64,000 nt of DNA from Octopus sinensis (GCF_006345805.1 NC_043005.1:98828001-98892000), one strand, 5' to 3'; shown: positions 3,836 to 62,937, counted from the first letter of the stretch. Notes: a model not told the origin generated them from the letters alone. Numbers and translations: made by a program.

Positions 3836-5380
3836 TGGTCTGTTATCGTGCATTTATAAATTACGTTTTGGACCGAACAAATGCGCAATAATGACTTCAA
3901 ATAACAACTATCTTTATTTCGGTTGTTTGGTAGATTTTAAAAAACGTCTAAACAATCATTTTTCCTCTTTTAGTCTCAAACATAAGGCAGGTTGCACTAC
4001 ATTATCTGGTAAAATTTGGGAACTAAAAACGAATAATATAGAATTCAACCTAAAATGGGATATAGTTAGAAGAGCGCAACCTTATAGGAATAGTAGGGAT
4101 GGTTGTCAACTTTGTTCTATGGAAACTTATGAAATTTTGAAACATCAGGGTAATACAAATCTGTTGAATAACCGTTTGGAGCTGGGAGAATCTTGTATAC
4201 ATCGTACAACCAGAACGTTTAAATACTTTAAATAATAATTTTGTGAATATTCCTATATTTTTCAAATTTTAATTCTTTATAACCAAATAAGAAGGAATAT
4301 ACCACACTAGCTTTCAATTTAACATTTATAGATGACTAAAATAACTTCACTGCAAACTTAAAATTAAATTCTTCTTTTTTCTAAAATTAAACTGTATGAA
4401 TCTAAATAGTTGGAACCCTAAATAGTATGAATCCCAAATAGTAGGAATACTAAATAGTATGAATCCTATGTCCCTAAAGAAACTATTCAGTTCACCTTGA
4501 TTATCTCACTTCCATTTCTTAATATATAATTAGTCTAAGATATCTTTACAAAATATATTTAACCAAATAGGAACAAATATACCATACTGGTTTTATTTTA
4601 ACACCCATAAATGATTAAAAAACTTCATTGCAAACTTAGAATTAAATTCTTCTTTTTTATAATGTTCTCCAATACTAAGTAGCATTAATCCTATGTCCCT
4701 GGGGAAACTATTTGGCTAATCTTGATTATCTCACTCCCATTTCTTAATATATAATTAACCTAGTCTCTTTCTCCAAATTTGAATAAATTTTAGATTTATA
4801 TTTTTCCTTTATTCTAACGTGTCAAAGTACTTGGAACTTATAGACCAACTGTTGTGTTGATATGCATAGGGTTTGTAAGGTCTCTGCATTCTCTGTGAAT
4901 GTTATTGTGACCATTTGACTTTGACCTAGTTTCTCCTAATGCTGAATCTGTTCATCAAATAGTAGTAATTGGCATTTAGTTGTGACAATGCTGTCTTCTA
5001 CATAAATTCCTTATATGGAGCTATGACATCCTCTTTACCCCATTTCTATAATTAGAAAATCTTTATTGTCTCTTTTCATTTGTTCTTCCCTCTCAGAACA
5101 TTACAGTGGTCTGGAACAACTGAATCTTAGTCAGTCAGTTGATGGGCTCCACTACCTCAAATGTTCTTAAAATTTAAATCCACATCTTTGTCTGTATCTA
5201 CCTTCTCTATAATGTTGCCACTTGATATGAAAATTTTTGTATTAATGGGAAACCTCTATAATTGGCTGATGAGTGCTCAGCATTTTAAAACTGTTGTAAT
5301 ACTTACAACATTTAATAAAATGATGTAGTATGAAACGATCGTACCAAATTACCGGAGTCATTCTTGTTGCTTATTTTGAT
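3836..5380 (+). mobile_element. 5'-truncated Penelope-like retroelement: GIY-YIG endonuclease C-terminus, 3' region and pLTR with hammerhead
   Basis: ORF to 4235 has PLE endonuclease motifs (IYK..YFG..FKKRLNNH.SSF..TTLSGKIWELK..W..PY..CQLC..E..LLNNR.EL...C.H). Ends in an HHR-containing tail abutting (TA)n at about 5380. Confidence 0.8.
5262..5347 (+). ncRNA. Type I hammerhead ribozyme (PLE pLTR), intact core
   Basis: ttgg-CTGATGA(5266-72)-[gtgct...long hairpin...agtat]-GAAA(5332-35)-c gatc g-TA-ccaa. Stems I, II and III all pair. Predicted cleavage after GUA at 5343. Confidence 0.8.
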
Positions 5381-8091
5381 ATATATATATATATATATAT
5401 ATAGATAGATAGATGGATAGATGGACATATATAGATAGATAAAACTTACTTGGAATTAGATGTGTGGCATTCAATCATATATATATATATATATATATAT
5501 ATATATATATATATATATATATTATATATATATACATATATAGATAATATATATATATATATACATATATATATAGATAGACATACTGACATATACATGT
5601 ATATACATATGCATATATGGGCACAGAATGTCACAGAACATAAACAACATGGAATACGAACTTTTTTTGCAAACAAAGAAACAAGACAAAGCAACAAAAG
5701 AATGACCCTTCATCAGTTGCTGGTTGTTTTTCTTACACACACACACACACACACTATTCTTAACCAAGCCAACCTTACAACTTGTCACCTCACACCTCAC
5801 TTCATCACTCCCACTGCACTCTATCCCATGATGCCTTTATTGCCACCTTTACTTCACTGTTCACTCTCATACCTCTTGCTGTACCTACCCAGTATGTCTT
5901 TCACATCCCTAATTCCATCCTTCTTCTCCAGTGCCTTCCCCATCCATGATGCCTTCACAGTATTCTTGCACTCTGCTCTTTCTCCTCTTCCTACTTCTGT
6001 GGTACCTTTCAGTGTCTACATATCACTCACCTCTCCTCTATCCCCTTTTCTCTCACAGCCCTCTCCTGCACAGCATCTCTGCTTCCTTCCTTAACACTCT
6101 TCCTCGACTTGTCCCCTCTGACCTACAGGCATGACCCCCTCCACCACTTCCTTCAATGACTCACTCAGGATTCTTTTCCACCATAGTTTATTGTTTCCTT
6201 TCTATCCCCCTTTCCCTCACGCTTTCTGTCTGTATGCACTCCTTGAAATGTTGTAGGGGCCCTAGACCTTCCCATCCCAATACAACCCATTTTACCACAT
6301 TTTCAACCTTCTCTTCTTTTTAATCATGTCACCAATCCTTTTCTTCTGCCCTGTTCCTTGCCATACTCTCCTAGTCTCCCCTTTAAATTAACTTTCCTTC
6401 ATCCTACTGCCTAGGATAATTTCCCCACTATCTCTTTTCTTCTCTCTCAGTTATAGGGAGCCACTTTCAGGCCTTAGCCTTTCAAATTATGAGGCAATCG
6501 TCACAAGTATACCTTGTACTTGTGATGATTGGCATTATGAAGGGCATCCAGTGATAGAAACCATTTCAAAGAAGACATTTGTGCATGAGGCAGTCCTCTT
6601 GTCAGACCATCTCAAACCATCCAATCCATACCAACATGGAAGCTGGGTCTTAAATGATGAGGATAATATTATTATTATTATTATTATTATTGTTACTACT
6701 ACTGCTACTACTACAGTTGTTATTATTCCTTTGCTCTAGAAAACTACTTTGAGATAATTTACCAAAGGAAATTCTATTATAGAATTTTTGATTTAAGTGG
6801 TTTTATTCATATTCCTCTCTACTCCTTCCCACTCATTCCTGAATAACATGAAAGGAACCGAATTTGCGCTAACACAAGGACCTACTTTCAGTTTCACTCA
6901 TGCTAATGACTAATCACTCTCTGCTTCTGCTACCTGTGACGCTGTGCCTGTAAGTGTGTACCAGTGTGTTGTACGCTAAACTATTTCTCTGTCTGTCTCA
7001 ATGAAGTGCTGCTATTTTGTGCACTGCCTTATTGTTTCTATCTAAATTTTGTTCCTGCATTTTGCTTTCTTTGTTGAATTCAGTCAAGTTATCATCCACC
7101 AGAATCTTCTGTTATAATTAGTTTGTAGCTGTAAATTGCAGAGCAACTGTAGTTCTTTGACCTACTTCAACTGCTTGGAGCTGTATATCATAAGGTTTCT
7201 TTCAGATGATGTATTTATTGAAAAGAACTTCGTAAATTACTTTAGAATATGCTAAGTGTGTACACATACACACACACACACACATTTTTTGCATCAGTTT
7301 TTATTGTGAATATCTCTGAGTGTGTGTGTATATATATGAGAAATATGTACATATATAGACTTGTATATTTATGTGATTGTGAGTTTGTATCTGCATATAC
7401 TATGCATGTATTTGTGTGTTTATACACACACACAACCACAAGATTCATCTTTTTCACAGACTTGATTATTATGATTAGCTAATTGGTTTATCCTTTTTTT
7501 CTTCTCTCTTCAGTTCTACTTTTTGCCTCCATGATATTGTCTGTAAACAATTGAGAGAGAGTTTTAAAATACTTTTATCGTTATTATTCAATCTATTCAT
7601 TTTTTTTTCATCATTATAATCTTTGTTACCATTTTTATTATCAGCATTAATAATCAATTTCTTTCATTAATTATTTATTTTTCTTATCAATATTGGTAAT
7701 GAACACCTAATTGTGCCACACATTTCCACATACACAGGCTCAGGTGTTTACCTGTGCATAAACATACAGTTTGACTCTCTCTCTCTCTCACATTTTCACA
7801 TCTGTATACACACACAGACAATTACACATGTGCACATACACACGTACACACACATGACCTAATACAAAAACTTGTGCAGAGATTAATATATGAACAGATT
7901 TAAGCTCATATGCACCTACAAGTACAAAGATAAACACACACTCACACACTCACTCACACACACACACACACACACACACACACACACACACACACAGTAT
8001 AAACCATAGGTTGTGTGTAGCTTGCTTAGTTGAATAGCAGTAACTTTTTCAGTATGCATATGAAAGACCACACATTCTCATCTGTTGTAAT

Positions 8092-8387
8092 CTGTTCTTC
8101 ACTCCTGCTCCGGAGCGTCGGCTGCGGGGTCATTCCGAAAAGCTCTACCTGCGACGATTTCATCTCAATCGAAGGAGAGGAGCTTTCTCCGTCCGGGTTG
8201 CGGATCCGTGGAACAAGCTGCCAGACGAGATGGTGAAGATGCCGACGACCGCTTTGTTCAAAGCCTCCCTGGACCTCAAGTGGCCTGAACTCTTTACATG
8301 AACACCACCCTGTACTTAACTCCATGTCCCCCTACATGGCCTTGCTATTTGCTTTTGAGCCAAATTAACTAACTAACTAACTAACTA
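8092..8387 (+). mobile_element. CR1-clade LINE 3' end with (TAAC)n tail
   Basis: Frame LRGHSEKLYLRRFHLNRRRGAFSVRVADPWNKLPDEMVK...FKASLD matches the CR1 ORF2 C-terminal motif. Short 3'UTR and tandem tail. Confidence 0.85.
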
Positions 8388-61713: not shown

Positions 61714-62370
61714 GTAAACCATCTTCCTGCAATTTAGTTTTCTACTCATTATTCTATTTTCTTTTCTTTTGTTTCTTTTAATTAACCTTTTAACATTCAG
61801 TTCACTCTGTCACATATAATGCTTATTTATTCGCATTGTTTTGAATTAATCATGCATTTTCTTGTAGCTTCAAACAAATCTTTCTTTCAGAGTTACTAAA
61901 CTCTAGCATTATTCTGGACTTGAATACAATCCACTCTAACCTTACTCTTCAAAAATGTTATCCTAGAGACTAAAAATATTAGCTCTGAGGTTTAGGTATG
62001 GCTGCACAGGTAAGCAGCTGATTTCATAGCCACTTGGTCTCAGGTGCAGTCTCACTGCATGGCACTTCAGGGAAATATTTCTAATATTGCCTTTAGCTAA
62101 CTAATGTCTTAGGTGTTAAATTGAAACAGGAAAACTGCATGGAAGCCCGTCATGTATATATATGTATGAGTTTATGTGTGTCTGTGTATATATATAGTAT
62201 GTGTGTATATATGCATGTGTGTATGTATGTGTGTCTATATATATATATATAAGAGGGATGATATTATTAAAATACCATCATAAGTGGCAAGTGAGTATCA
62301 GCCATACAGGCAAATTAATAAAATACATGCATACAATATAAGACATGTACTTTATATATATATATATATA

Positions 62371-62937
62371 TATAAACAACTTATAAATAAGGGCAAACGA
62401 AAAAATTTCTAATGCCAAATATGCCGAAATAAGACACATTGTCCATAACCATATAATTTACCACAATACACATGCTACTCGATAAAATTTTTACAGAAAT
62501 TTTTTTTTTTTTTTTTTTTTCCGAAAAAATTTTATCCTATATTAAATATAAATTTAATAGTGTTCCCTTCCAGACTCCCTTACTCTGTGAGAGTTTCAGT
62601 TCGAATCGTACATGTCTTGAATGGGTTGGTGAATTTCTATTTTGGATATATTTGGGGTACTTAGTTGTGCTCATGACTTAGTGTTTGCTTCTTCCATGGG
62701 TATGAGTAAGTATTTCATATATTTCTTTTGCCGCATTTATCACTGACGAAGGGAGGGTTCTTACGAACTAACCTTGAAATCGGTCCGATATGGTAATAAC
62801 GGAATTTTTTTAGAAATTTCTGTCGACCTTTTTCAAGTAGCATGCGTATTGTGGTAAATTATACGGTTATGGACAATGTTTCTTATTTGGCATTAGAAAT
62901 TCTTTCGTTTGCCCTTATTTATTATAAGTTGTTTATA
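62371..62937 (+). mobile_element. PLE pLTR with a partial inverted copy at its 5' side
   Basis: 62371-62523 is the reverse complement of 62800-62937, with an HHR between the arms. Starts in (TA)n and truncates the adjacent maT element. Confidence 0.8.
62737..62796 (+). ncRNA. Type I hammerhead ribozyme, intact
   Basis: ttatca-CTGACGA-[aggg ag ggttc ttac gaact aa cctt]-GAAA-tcg gtc cga-TA-tggtaa. 6-bp stem I, extended stem II, 4-bp stem III. Predicted cleavage after 62790. Confidence 0.87.

What the first reader, a model, noticed from the sequence alone, without database searches (positions are those of the whole stretch)
5262..62796. Window-wide system: about 7 distinct hammerhead-bearing pLTR families, several as non-coding fold-back mini-elements, inside RIC1 introns
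Seen: 11 CTGANGA/GAAA/NUH cores (intact or decayed) with type I topology at 8 loci (5262+, 11016-, 24220-/24368+, 36697-/36763+, 40615+, 52498-/52843+, 56503+, 62737+). Flanks are unrelated between families, yet core order is constant and stem III is usually palindromic (CGATCG, CAATTG, TCGCGA). Known: Penelope-like elements carry type I HHRs in their pLTRs, often with a minimal palindromic stem III thought to act as a dimer, and can have inverted 5' pLTRs. Inference: this genome hosts a diverse population of short non-autonomous, retrozyme-like ribozyme elements mobilised by PLE RT/GIY-YIG. Ordinary repeat annotation would call them MITEs or unknown repeats. I cannot establish from here whether they are already described.
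Basis: partly seen in the sequence, partly recalled or inferred. Interest (0 to 1): 0.85.

Follow-up and report, generated by a model that had tools for sequence, protein, structure and literature searches.

The report
Ribozyme-bearing Penelope transposon ends and mini-elements
Eight spots in the introns of the RIC1 gene carry real hammerhead-ribozyme folds, left by seven common repeat families. Five families are the cut-off tail ends of protein-coding Penelope-type jumping genes, one with a tRNA-like head that likely spawns its own short SINE-like copies. Two are short non-coding units likely copied by the same enzymes. This is mostly known biology, and self-cutting is untested.

Summary
All 11 cores lie at the stated coordinates, and all 8 loci are in RIC1 introns. 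Four cores pass a strict type I hammerhead descriptor (shuffles: mean 0.14). One family shows clear covariation.

Families A, C, E, F and G are 5'-truncated 3' ends (pLTRs) of autonomous Penelope-like elements (PLEs). The link to an ORF is strong for A (23/30 loci), F (29/30) and G, and thin for C and E. Only B (~352 nt) and D (~478 nt) are closed non-coding units, like non-LTR retrozymes.

The fold-backs are PLE 5' inversions with a one-sided tail: F 30/57, B 20/29, D 16/34, control SINE 0/98. This ties B and D to PLE enzymes.

The least expected result is F. Its pLTR starts 30 nt after the ORF stop with tRNA-like A/B boxes, and most copies begin sharply there. This suggests a Pol III SINE born inside a pLTR.

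The window is not a special system: random DNA holds about 3 such loci per 100 kb. Cleavage and transcription start are untested.

The parts
3780..5390 (+). Family A, copy 1: 5'-truncated Hydra-type PLE (end of GIY-YIG ORF 3780-4235, 3' UTR, hammerhead 5262-5347 with intact core), ending in (TA)n
   Evidence: CxCx5C linker in relatives L269-L271 fits the Hydra motif in PMC8557442
10965..13261 (-). Family G: 5'-truncated Neptune-type PLE (frameshifted RT + GIY-YIG 13261-11659) with 3' hammerhead 11053-11016 (U3-A8 variant; G12 lost in this copy)
24091..24492 (.). Family A, copy 2: head-to-head pair of PLE 3' ends (minus arm 24091-24336 with ~100-nt tail; plus arm 24339-24492); hammerheads 24306-24221- and 24369-24454+
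28711..28799 (+). RIC1 exon
36532..37025 (.). Family B: head-to-head insertion of a closed ~352-nt non-coding retrozyme-like unit; hammerheads 36741-36697- (core intact) and 36763-36804+ (decayed); 9-nt flanking direct repeat at 36524-36532 and 37027-37035
40535..40745 (+). Family E: truncated PLE 3' end with a minimal hammerhead at 40615-40649 (G5 lost in this copy), between (TA)n runs
46879..46964 (+). RIC1 exon
52457..53052 (.). Family C: old head-to-head pair of PLE 3' ends (Hydra-like endonuclease upstream in other copies); decayed hammerheads 52603-52498- and 52843-52947+; tail on the plus arm only
56357..56595 (+). Family F: tRNA-like head with A and B boxes (about 56357-56430), (AAT)n, minimal hammerhead 56503-56543 (3' part decayed); the 3' UTR/pLTR of a Penelope/Poseidon-type PLE, here in its short SINE-like form
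61465..61713 (+). RIC1 exon (spliced to 46964)
62349..62948 (.). Family D: closed ~478-nt non-coding retrozyme-like unit (plus arm 62513-62948, intact hammerhead 62737-62796) with a short inverted arm 62349-62505, next to (TA)n

Best explanation
The eight loci are independent insertions of seven high-copy repeat families that carry a type I hammerhead fold. Five are truncated 3' ends of protein-coding Penelope-like retrotransposons, and two are closed non-coding units that were likely inserted by the same Penelope RT/GIY-YIG enzymes.

Mechanism. (1) Shown in vitro for another PLE (PMC11167929) and inferred here: the enzyme nicks both strands of AT-rich DNA and starts reverse transcription at one of two internal sites downstream of the ribozyme. 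(2) Shown in the DNA: copies end at two fixed 3' points. They are often head-to-head pairs whose arms differ by a tail, and almost never tail-to-tail. This fits two cDNAs primed on opposite strands and joined at their truncated 5' ends (inferred). (3) Shown: B and D copies run through a head-to-tail junction for up to about 2.5 units and start at any phase. Their template was therefore a circle or a tandem transcript; which one is not known. (4) Shown: F's pLTR starts with tRNA-spaced A/B boxes 30 nt after the ORF stop, and most copies begin there. Inferred: a short Pol III transcript is mobilised in trans as a SINE. (5) Untested: that the ribozymes cut, probably as dimers or with protein help as reported for other PLE hammerheads. 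Most copies in the window are dead or decaying.
For: ORF linkage: A follows its GIY-YIG in 23 of 30 loci. F follows a Poseidon-type ORF in 29 of 30 loci (27 of 28 distinct). G is linked in the window itself, and 10 of 30 loci extend 1.5 kb or more upstream. Three C loci share ~1 kb upstream and two of them reach GIY-YIG coding DNA. E is linked in 2 of 30 loci.

Inversions: head-to-head F 30/57, B 20/29, D 16/34, A 9/71, control tRNA-SINE 0/98; tail-to-tail 0, 2, 0, 0, 0 (Fisher p<1e-10 for F, B and D).

Two 3' ends: F has 48 arms at 265-289, 36 at 300-308 and none between. B has 22 and 24, D 20 and 17, A 43 and 17 (bins at the reference ends dropped as artefacts). PMC11167929 calls this tail a signature unique to PLEs.

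Closed units: 9 of 30 B and 9 of 30 D copies cross the junction, with no adjoining same-strand PLE ORF.

Covariation in 12 family-A hammerheads: 96.5% of cells paired and 10 of 19 pairs with changes on both sides, against at most 4 such cells in slid controls.
Against: No cleavage data and no raw RNA reads (only contigs). Rfam finds no hammerhead. Only the best 30-40 of 700-5,200 candidates per family were examined, and these are biased toward the window copy, so a coding parent for B or D is not excluded. Linkage for C and E rests on 2-3 loci. No full-length F partner, and so no pLTR-to-ORF-start junction, was found. The covariation structure was drawn by me from these same sequences, which are related to each other.
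Confidence: 0.85

Rival explanations
1. All seven families are short non-autonomous retrozyme-like elements forming a dedicated population.
For: B and D are closed non-coding units. Most F copies are short. Many E and C copies show no ORF within 1.5 kb.
Against: A, F, G, C and E run into RT/GIY-YIG ORFs. A, C and G show graded 5' truncation.
Confidence: 0.07
2. The short F copies are not a separate Pol III SINE. They are ordinary truncations of the long PLE RNA, caused by RT snap-back at the 5-bp hairpin just before the tRNA-like head.
For: The hairpin is native to the autonomous element, and many fold-backs centre on it. Rfam tRNA scores are weak: 17.2 and 13.5 bits against a gathering score of 29, and no hit in a third copy. 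ARAGORN finds no tRNA.
Against: In ORF-containing insertions, 0 of the 5 second arms that reach the head stop there, against 15 of 17 among insertions picked by the ribozyme alone (p 0.0008; the five counted by eye). Strict A+B boxes at tRNA spacing occur in 19 of 30 F copies, 0 of 30 in each other family and 0 in shuffles. T4 runs are absent from 29 of 30 F copies (partly compositional).
Confidence: 0.35
3. The fold-back copies are MITEs (DNA-transposon derivatives with terminal inverted repeats) that happen to hold core-like words.
For: Long near-perfect inverted arms at 24k, 36k and 52k.
Against: Arm lengths vary from copy to copy, one arm carries a tail the other lacks, many copies are single-armed, and the same sequences are the 3' ends of retrotransposon ORFs.
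Confidence: 0.02
4. The ribozymes were kept in RIC1 introns for a host function, such as controlling RIC1 pre-mRNA.
For: Local density is about 3.6 times the random level with a window-seeded library. Some intact cores lie on the sense strand (5262, 24369, 62737).
Against: Both orientations occur, 6 of 11 cores are decayed, the families have thousands of copies elsewhere, and the strict-descriptor density is not significantly above background (p 0.08).
Confidence: 0.04

Closest known systems
Hammerheads in pLTRs of EN+ Penelope-like elements (Penelope/Poseidon, Neptune, Hydra); Cervera & de la Pena 2014 PMC4209133; Craig et al. 2021 PMC8557442
   Same: Type I, minimal or palindromic helix III, extra nucleotide after A9, U3-A8 variant, many families per genome, mostly lone truncated copies, opposite-strand pairs, 5' inversion, one-sided tail, (TA)n targets.
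   Different: New families in this genome. Very long branched helix II in A and C. Tails of about 55-100 nt in A, B and D, against the usual 30-40.
Non-LTR retrozymes (Cervera & de la Pena 2020 PMC7229834; Li, Clavereau & Pollet 2026 bioRxiv 10.64898/2026.07.22.740005)
   Same: B and D: non-coding units of 350-480 nt, one type I hammerhead per unit, head-to-tail copies, low GC, living beside PLEs.
   Different: Seen as dispersed 1-2.5-unit insertions rather than long arrays. They carry the PLE tail and 5'-inversion signature, which the parts of those papers I read do not report. Circular RNA was not tested.
Schistosoma SMalpha/Sjalpha SINE-like elements with a hammerhead (as described in PMC6765202 and PMC8490949; original papers not read)
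   Same: A Pol III-type promoter followed by a type I hammerhead in a ~300-nt repeat.
   Different: In F the A/B-box head is part of the 3' UTR of an autonomous Poseidon-type PLE, and copies are monomers or head-to-head pairs with PLE tails. No sequence comparison with SMalpha was made.
Poseidon of Anolis (PAc), Frangieh et al. 2024 PMC11167929
   Same: Two RT start points downstream of the ribozyme give the tail; both strands are cut.
   Different: That work is biochemical; here only the genomic footprint is seen.

Membership tests
Type I hammerhead ribozyme | Core CUGANGA / GAAA / UH in type I order with helices I-III | tested here: met
   4 of 11 window cores pass a strict descriptor against 0.14 by chance; both core boxes are kept by most copies in A, B, D, E and G, while in C and F only a minority keep the 3' box
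Type I hammerhead ribozyme | Covariation of helices with an invariant core | tested here: met
   Family A only: 10 of 19 pairs change on both sides and the core is invariant except N7; other families not aligned across subfamilies
Type I hammerhead ribozyme | Rfam hammerhead model match | tested here: not met
   No match at E<=5 in the window
Type I hammerhead ribozyme | Self-cleavage | not testable with these tools
   No raw RNA reads; needs an in vitro assay
EN+ Penelope-like element (A, C, E, F, G) | Hammerhead-bearing end follows an RT + C-terminal GIY-YIG ORF | tested here: met
   A 23/30, F 29/30, G in the window; C 2 loci; E 2 of 30
EN+ Penelope-like element (A, C, E, F, G) | 5' truncation, inverted 5' copy, one-sided tail | tested here: met
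   A and F counted; C and G seen per locus; no inversion seen in the 30 E loci
PLE clade (Hydra for A and C, Neptune for G and E, Penelope/Poseidon for F) | Linker motif and RT phylogeny | tested here: inconclusive
   Linkers read by eye against PMC8557442: CxCx5C (A), Cx4CxxC (G), none (F); C assigned by 40% endonuclease identity to A; no tree with reference RTs
Non-LTR retrozyme (B, D) | Non-coding 170-500 nt unit with a type I hammerhead in head-to-tail copies | tested here: met
   9/30 and 9/30 copies cross the unit junction; no adjoining same-strand ORF
Non-LTR retrozyme (B, D) | Expressed as monomeric linear and circular RNA | not testable with these tools
   Only contigs were available
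tRNA-derived SINE (short F) | Internal Pol III A and B boxes at tRNA spacing at the 5' end | tested here: met
   19/30 F against 0/30 in each of six other families and 0 in shuffles
tRNA-derived SINE (short F) | Homology to a tRNA | tested here: inconclusive
   Rfam tRNA 17.2 bits (E 0.47), 13.5 bits (E 2.2), no hit in a third copy; ARAGORN negative
tRNA-derived SINE (short F) | Defined 5' start and a 3' end shared with an autonomous partner | tested here: met
   28/30 head-selected and 15/17 ribozyme-selected insertions start at -17..+17; partner ORF found
tRNA-derived SINE (short F) | Transcribed by Pol III | not testable with these tools
   Needs 5' RACE or Pol III ChIP
MITE | Fixed terminal inverted repeats at both ends | tested here: not met
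   Inversion breakpoints vary and the arms differ by a tail

The most novel reading that the evidence does not exclude
A Penelope/Poseidon-type retrotransposon carries a tRNA-derived Pol III promoter at the start of its pLTR, 30 nt after its stop codon. This yields a ~290-nt hammerhead-bearing SINE that depends on a Penelope enzyme rather than a LINE, and has spread to thousands of copies. Together with B and D, whose insertions bear the PLE-only tail and inversion marks, this genome records Penelope enzymes mobilising both SINE-like and retrozyme-like RNAs in trans, and offers an origin for SMalpha-type ribozyme SINEs.
Probability: 0.55. Interest if true: 0.62.

Novelty: new variant of a known kind. 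Interest (0 to 1): 0.42.

Why it matters
Most of the finding is ordinary PLE debris. Two points would matter to transposon and ribozyme specialists.

First, which enzyme moves animal retrozymes is still argued from co-occurrence and sequence similarity (PMC7229834; bioRxiv 10.64898/2026.07.22.740005). B and D carry the two-start-site tail and the 5' inversion of PLEs, which is a direct mechanistic footprint and can be counted in any genome.

Second, F looks like a SINE whose partner is a PLE and whose promoter sits inside the partner's own pLTR. It gives a ~300-nt RNA that could be tested with purified PLE protein as a minimal trans template.

The genome also holds tens of thousands of hammerhead-like loci (about 3 per 100 kb, a lower bound) in roughly 25-30 families that Rfam misses.

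Tried and rejected
Rfam scan of the window: no hammerhead, only microsatellite look-alikes.

ARAGORN on the window and on the F majority sequence: nothing.

One search used a spacer one base too long, so its 28 matches are variants and not a copy count. I used them only as a sample unbiased for 5' ends.

One search was invalid because the reference held an inverted F copy; it was redone.

An ORF beside E in L131/L331 proved to belong to another family. A D copy inside the 1.7-kb direct repeats around an intact two-ORF PLE (L319) is a passenger downstream of that element's own end, not its pLTR ribozyme.

My first idea that F is a free-standing SINE was dropped when the upstream ORF was found. 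The search for a full-length F partner found only duplicated truncated copies.

RNA: no RNA holder was listed and only contigs were available, so there is nothing on strand, ends, cleavage or circles.

Earlier findings of this scan: none.

Literature: searches found no paper describing a tRNA-like head in a PLE pLTR or hammerheads in octopus PLEs. Most of the listed hits were seen as titles only. Repbase, Dfam, subscription papers and the supplements of the 2026 preprint and of PMC13282606 were not seen and may hold these families.
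Full report
Setting. The window is G000:C9:98828001-98892000 of a 2.72-Gb genome. The repeat landscape looks like an octopus; this is recalled, not from a call. The host gene is RIC1: two exons match Pfam PF07064, RNA-like contigs join 28711-28799, 46879-46964 and 61465-61713, and the previous exon lies about 23 kb upstream of the window.

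Observation. All 11 cores are at the stated coordinates. A strict type I descriptor finds 4 in the window, against a mean of 0.14 in 100 shuffles. Five cores are unmutated and six are decayed. Rfam finds none. Each of the seven families (A-G) has 714-5,219 candidate places in the genome, of which 40 were scored and 30 fetched. These samples are biased toward the window copy. In 12 family-A hammerheads from different subfamilies, the core is invariant apart from N7, 96.5% of helix cells pair, and 10 of 19 pairs change on both sides. G carries U3-A8 in 30 of 30 copies, a variant already reported for Schistosoma Cercyon (PMC4209133, parts 1-2 of 4 read).

Five families are PLE ends. A lies about 1 kb after a GIY-YIG ORF in the window and follows that ORF in 23 of 30 loci found with the protein. 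Its CxCx5C linker fits the Hydra clade (PMC8557442, passages). G lies directly after an RT + GIY-YIG ORF in the window, and 10 of 30 loci extend at least 1.5 kb upstream. Three C loci share about 1 kb upstream and two of them reach GIY-YIG coding DNA. E has a GIY-YIG upstream in one locus and an RT start downstream in another, of 30; this is the weakest link. F follows a Penelope/Poseidon-type ORF in 29 of 30 loci (27 of 28 distinct). Clade names rest on linker motifs, not on a tree.

Two families are closed non-coding units. B (351-353 nt) and D (~478 nt) copies start at any phase and stop at two fixed points. Nine of 30 in each family cross a head-to-tail junction, the longest spans about 2.5 units, and none joins a same-strand PLE ORF. 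In B the ribozyme folds in the minimum-energy structure with a long helix I extension. This fits non-LTR retrozymes (PMC7229834, passages), which a 2026 preprint argues are non-autonomous PLE derivatives (10.64898/2026.07.22.740005, parts 1-3 of 5 read, supplements not seen). A coding parent among the unsampled copies is not excluded.

The fold-backs are a PLE integration mark. Among de-duplicated insertions covering at least half the reference (150 nt for B and D), head-to-head pairs occur in F 30/57, B 20/29, D 16/34 and A 9/71, and in 0/98 copies of an abundant tRNA-SINE used as control. Tail-to-tail pairs occur in 0, 2, 0, 0 and 0. The 3' ends are bimodal: F has 48 arms at 265-289, 36 at 300-308 and none between, with similar pairs of peaks in B, D and A (reference-end bins dropped). 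PMC8557442 describes the inverted 5' copy and one-sided tail. PMC11167929 (parts 1-2 of 4 read) shows that the tail comes from two internal RT start sites, that both strands are cut, that the ribozyme needs protein help, and that its cleavage is not required for insertion in vitro. I infer that B, D and short F were inserted by PLE enzymes in trans.

Family F. Its pLTR begins 30 nt after the ORF stop with a small hairpin and then A and B boxes at tRNA spacing. A strict box pattern is met in 19/30 F copies, 0/30 in each other family and 0 in shuffled DNA, and 29/30 F copies lack a T4 run (partly compositional). Rfam tRNA scores are below threshold in two copies and absent in a third. The 5' ends cluster sharply: 28/30 head-selected insertions, and 15 of the 17 ribozyme-selected insertions that reach the head, start within -17..+17. 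In ORF-containing insertions, 0 of the 5 second arms that reach the head stop there (p 0.0008). This favours a separate short transcript over an RT stop at the hairpin, but the numbers are small and Pol III transcription is not shown. The nearest precedent is the Schistosoma SMalpha Pol III SINE with a hammerhead (PMC6765202 and PMC8490949, passages). Searches found no description of a tRNA-like head inside a PLE pLTR. A 2026 octopus repeat annotation has no occurrence of 'hammerhead' or 'ribozyme' in its main text (PMC13282606, passages). PMC6962438, PMC4758252 and PMC10886601 (passages) added nothing on this point. Repeat databases were not searchable.

Is the window special? Forty arbitrary 10-kb stretches hold 10 strict hits, two of which look spurious, against 4 in 64 kb here (p 0.08). 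A pooled library of 30 ribozyme clusters finds 12 loci in 400 kb, 7 in the window and 4 in 80 kb of neighbouring DNA. The window excess (p 0.004) is inflated because the library was seeded by the window's families. A modest local excess is possible, but nothing points to a coordinated or host-used system.

Verdict. The ribozyme folds are real, and they are mostly ordinary debris of known PLE types. The new points are the PLE integration footprint on two retrozyme-like families and a probable PLE-dependent SINE born within a pLTR. Cleavage, circles and the Pol III start are untested.

Noticed in passing
L319 (G000:C1:207472000-207481900): An intact two-ORF Neptune-type PLE (479-aa ORF1, 781-aa RT + GIY-YIG ORF2) flanked by 1.67-kb direct repeats that are 99.3% identical and include downstream DNA with a D copy and a SINE; this looks like 3' transduction into the pLTR. 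Several other loci have the same 781-aa open frame length, so the family may be young.
   Followed up: partly
window 56470-56595 and F copies such as L221: In F an open frame starts with ATG just upstream of the hammerhead and runs through ribozyme and tail. It may be the start of the partner's ORF, as in Anolis Poseidon; no full-length copy was found to check.
   Followed up: partly
L325:5930-6270, L332:5000-5300, L386:7620-7750, L419, L149: Relatives of family B share a downstream domain. L325 and L332 carry different hammerheads with a long helix I extension, suggesting a wider retrozyme-like superfamily.
   Followed up: partly
flanks of L001-L440: About 30 clusters of type I hammerhead-like motifs turn up in flanking DNA, several with the U3-A8 core (for example L254, L296, L301, L394).
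   Followed up: partly
window 35411-36532: Decayed transposase-like frames (Tc1/mariner-like by eye; no Pfam hit) run up to the family B insertion.
   Followed up: no
window 23566-24129 (-) and 47679-48309 (-): Decayed LINE (RTE-like by eye) RT fragments; the first lies directly next to the second family A insertion.
   Followed up: no
window 39907-40425: A ~300-nt local tandem duplication just upstream of the family E copy.
   Followed up: no
L269-L271: Hydra-type ORFs carry a long Asn-rich insert of roughly 150-200 aa between the RT thumb and the endonuclease linker.
   Followed up: no
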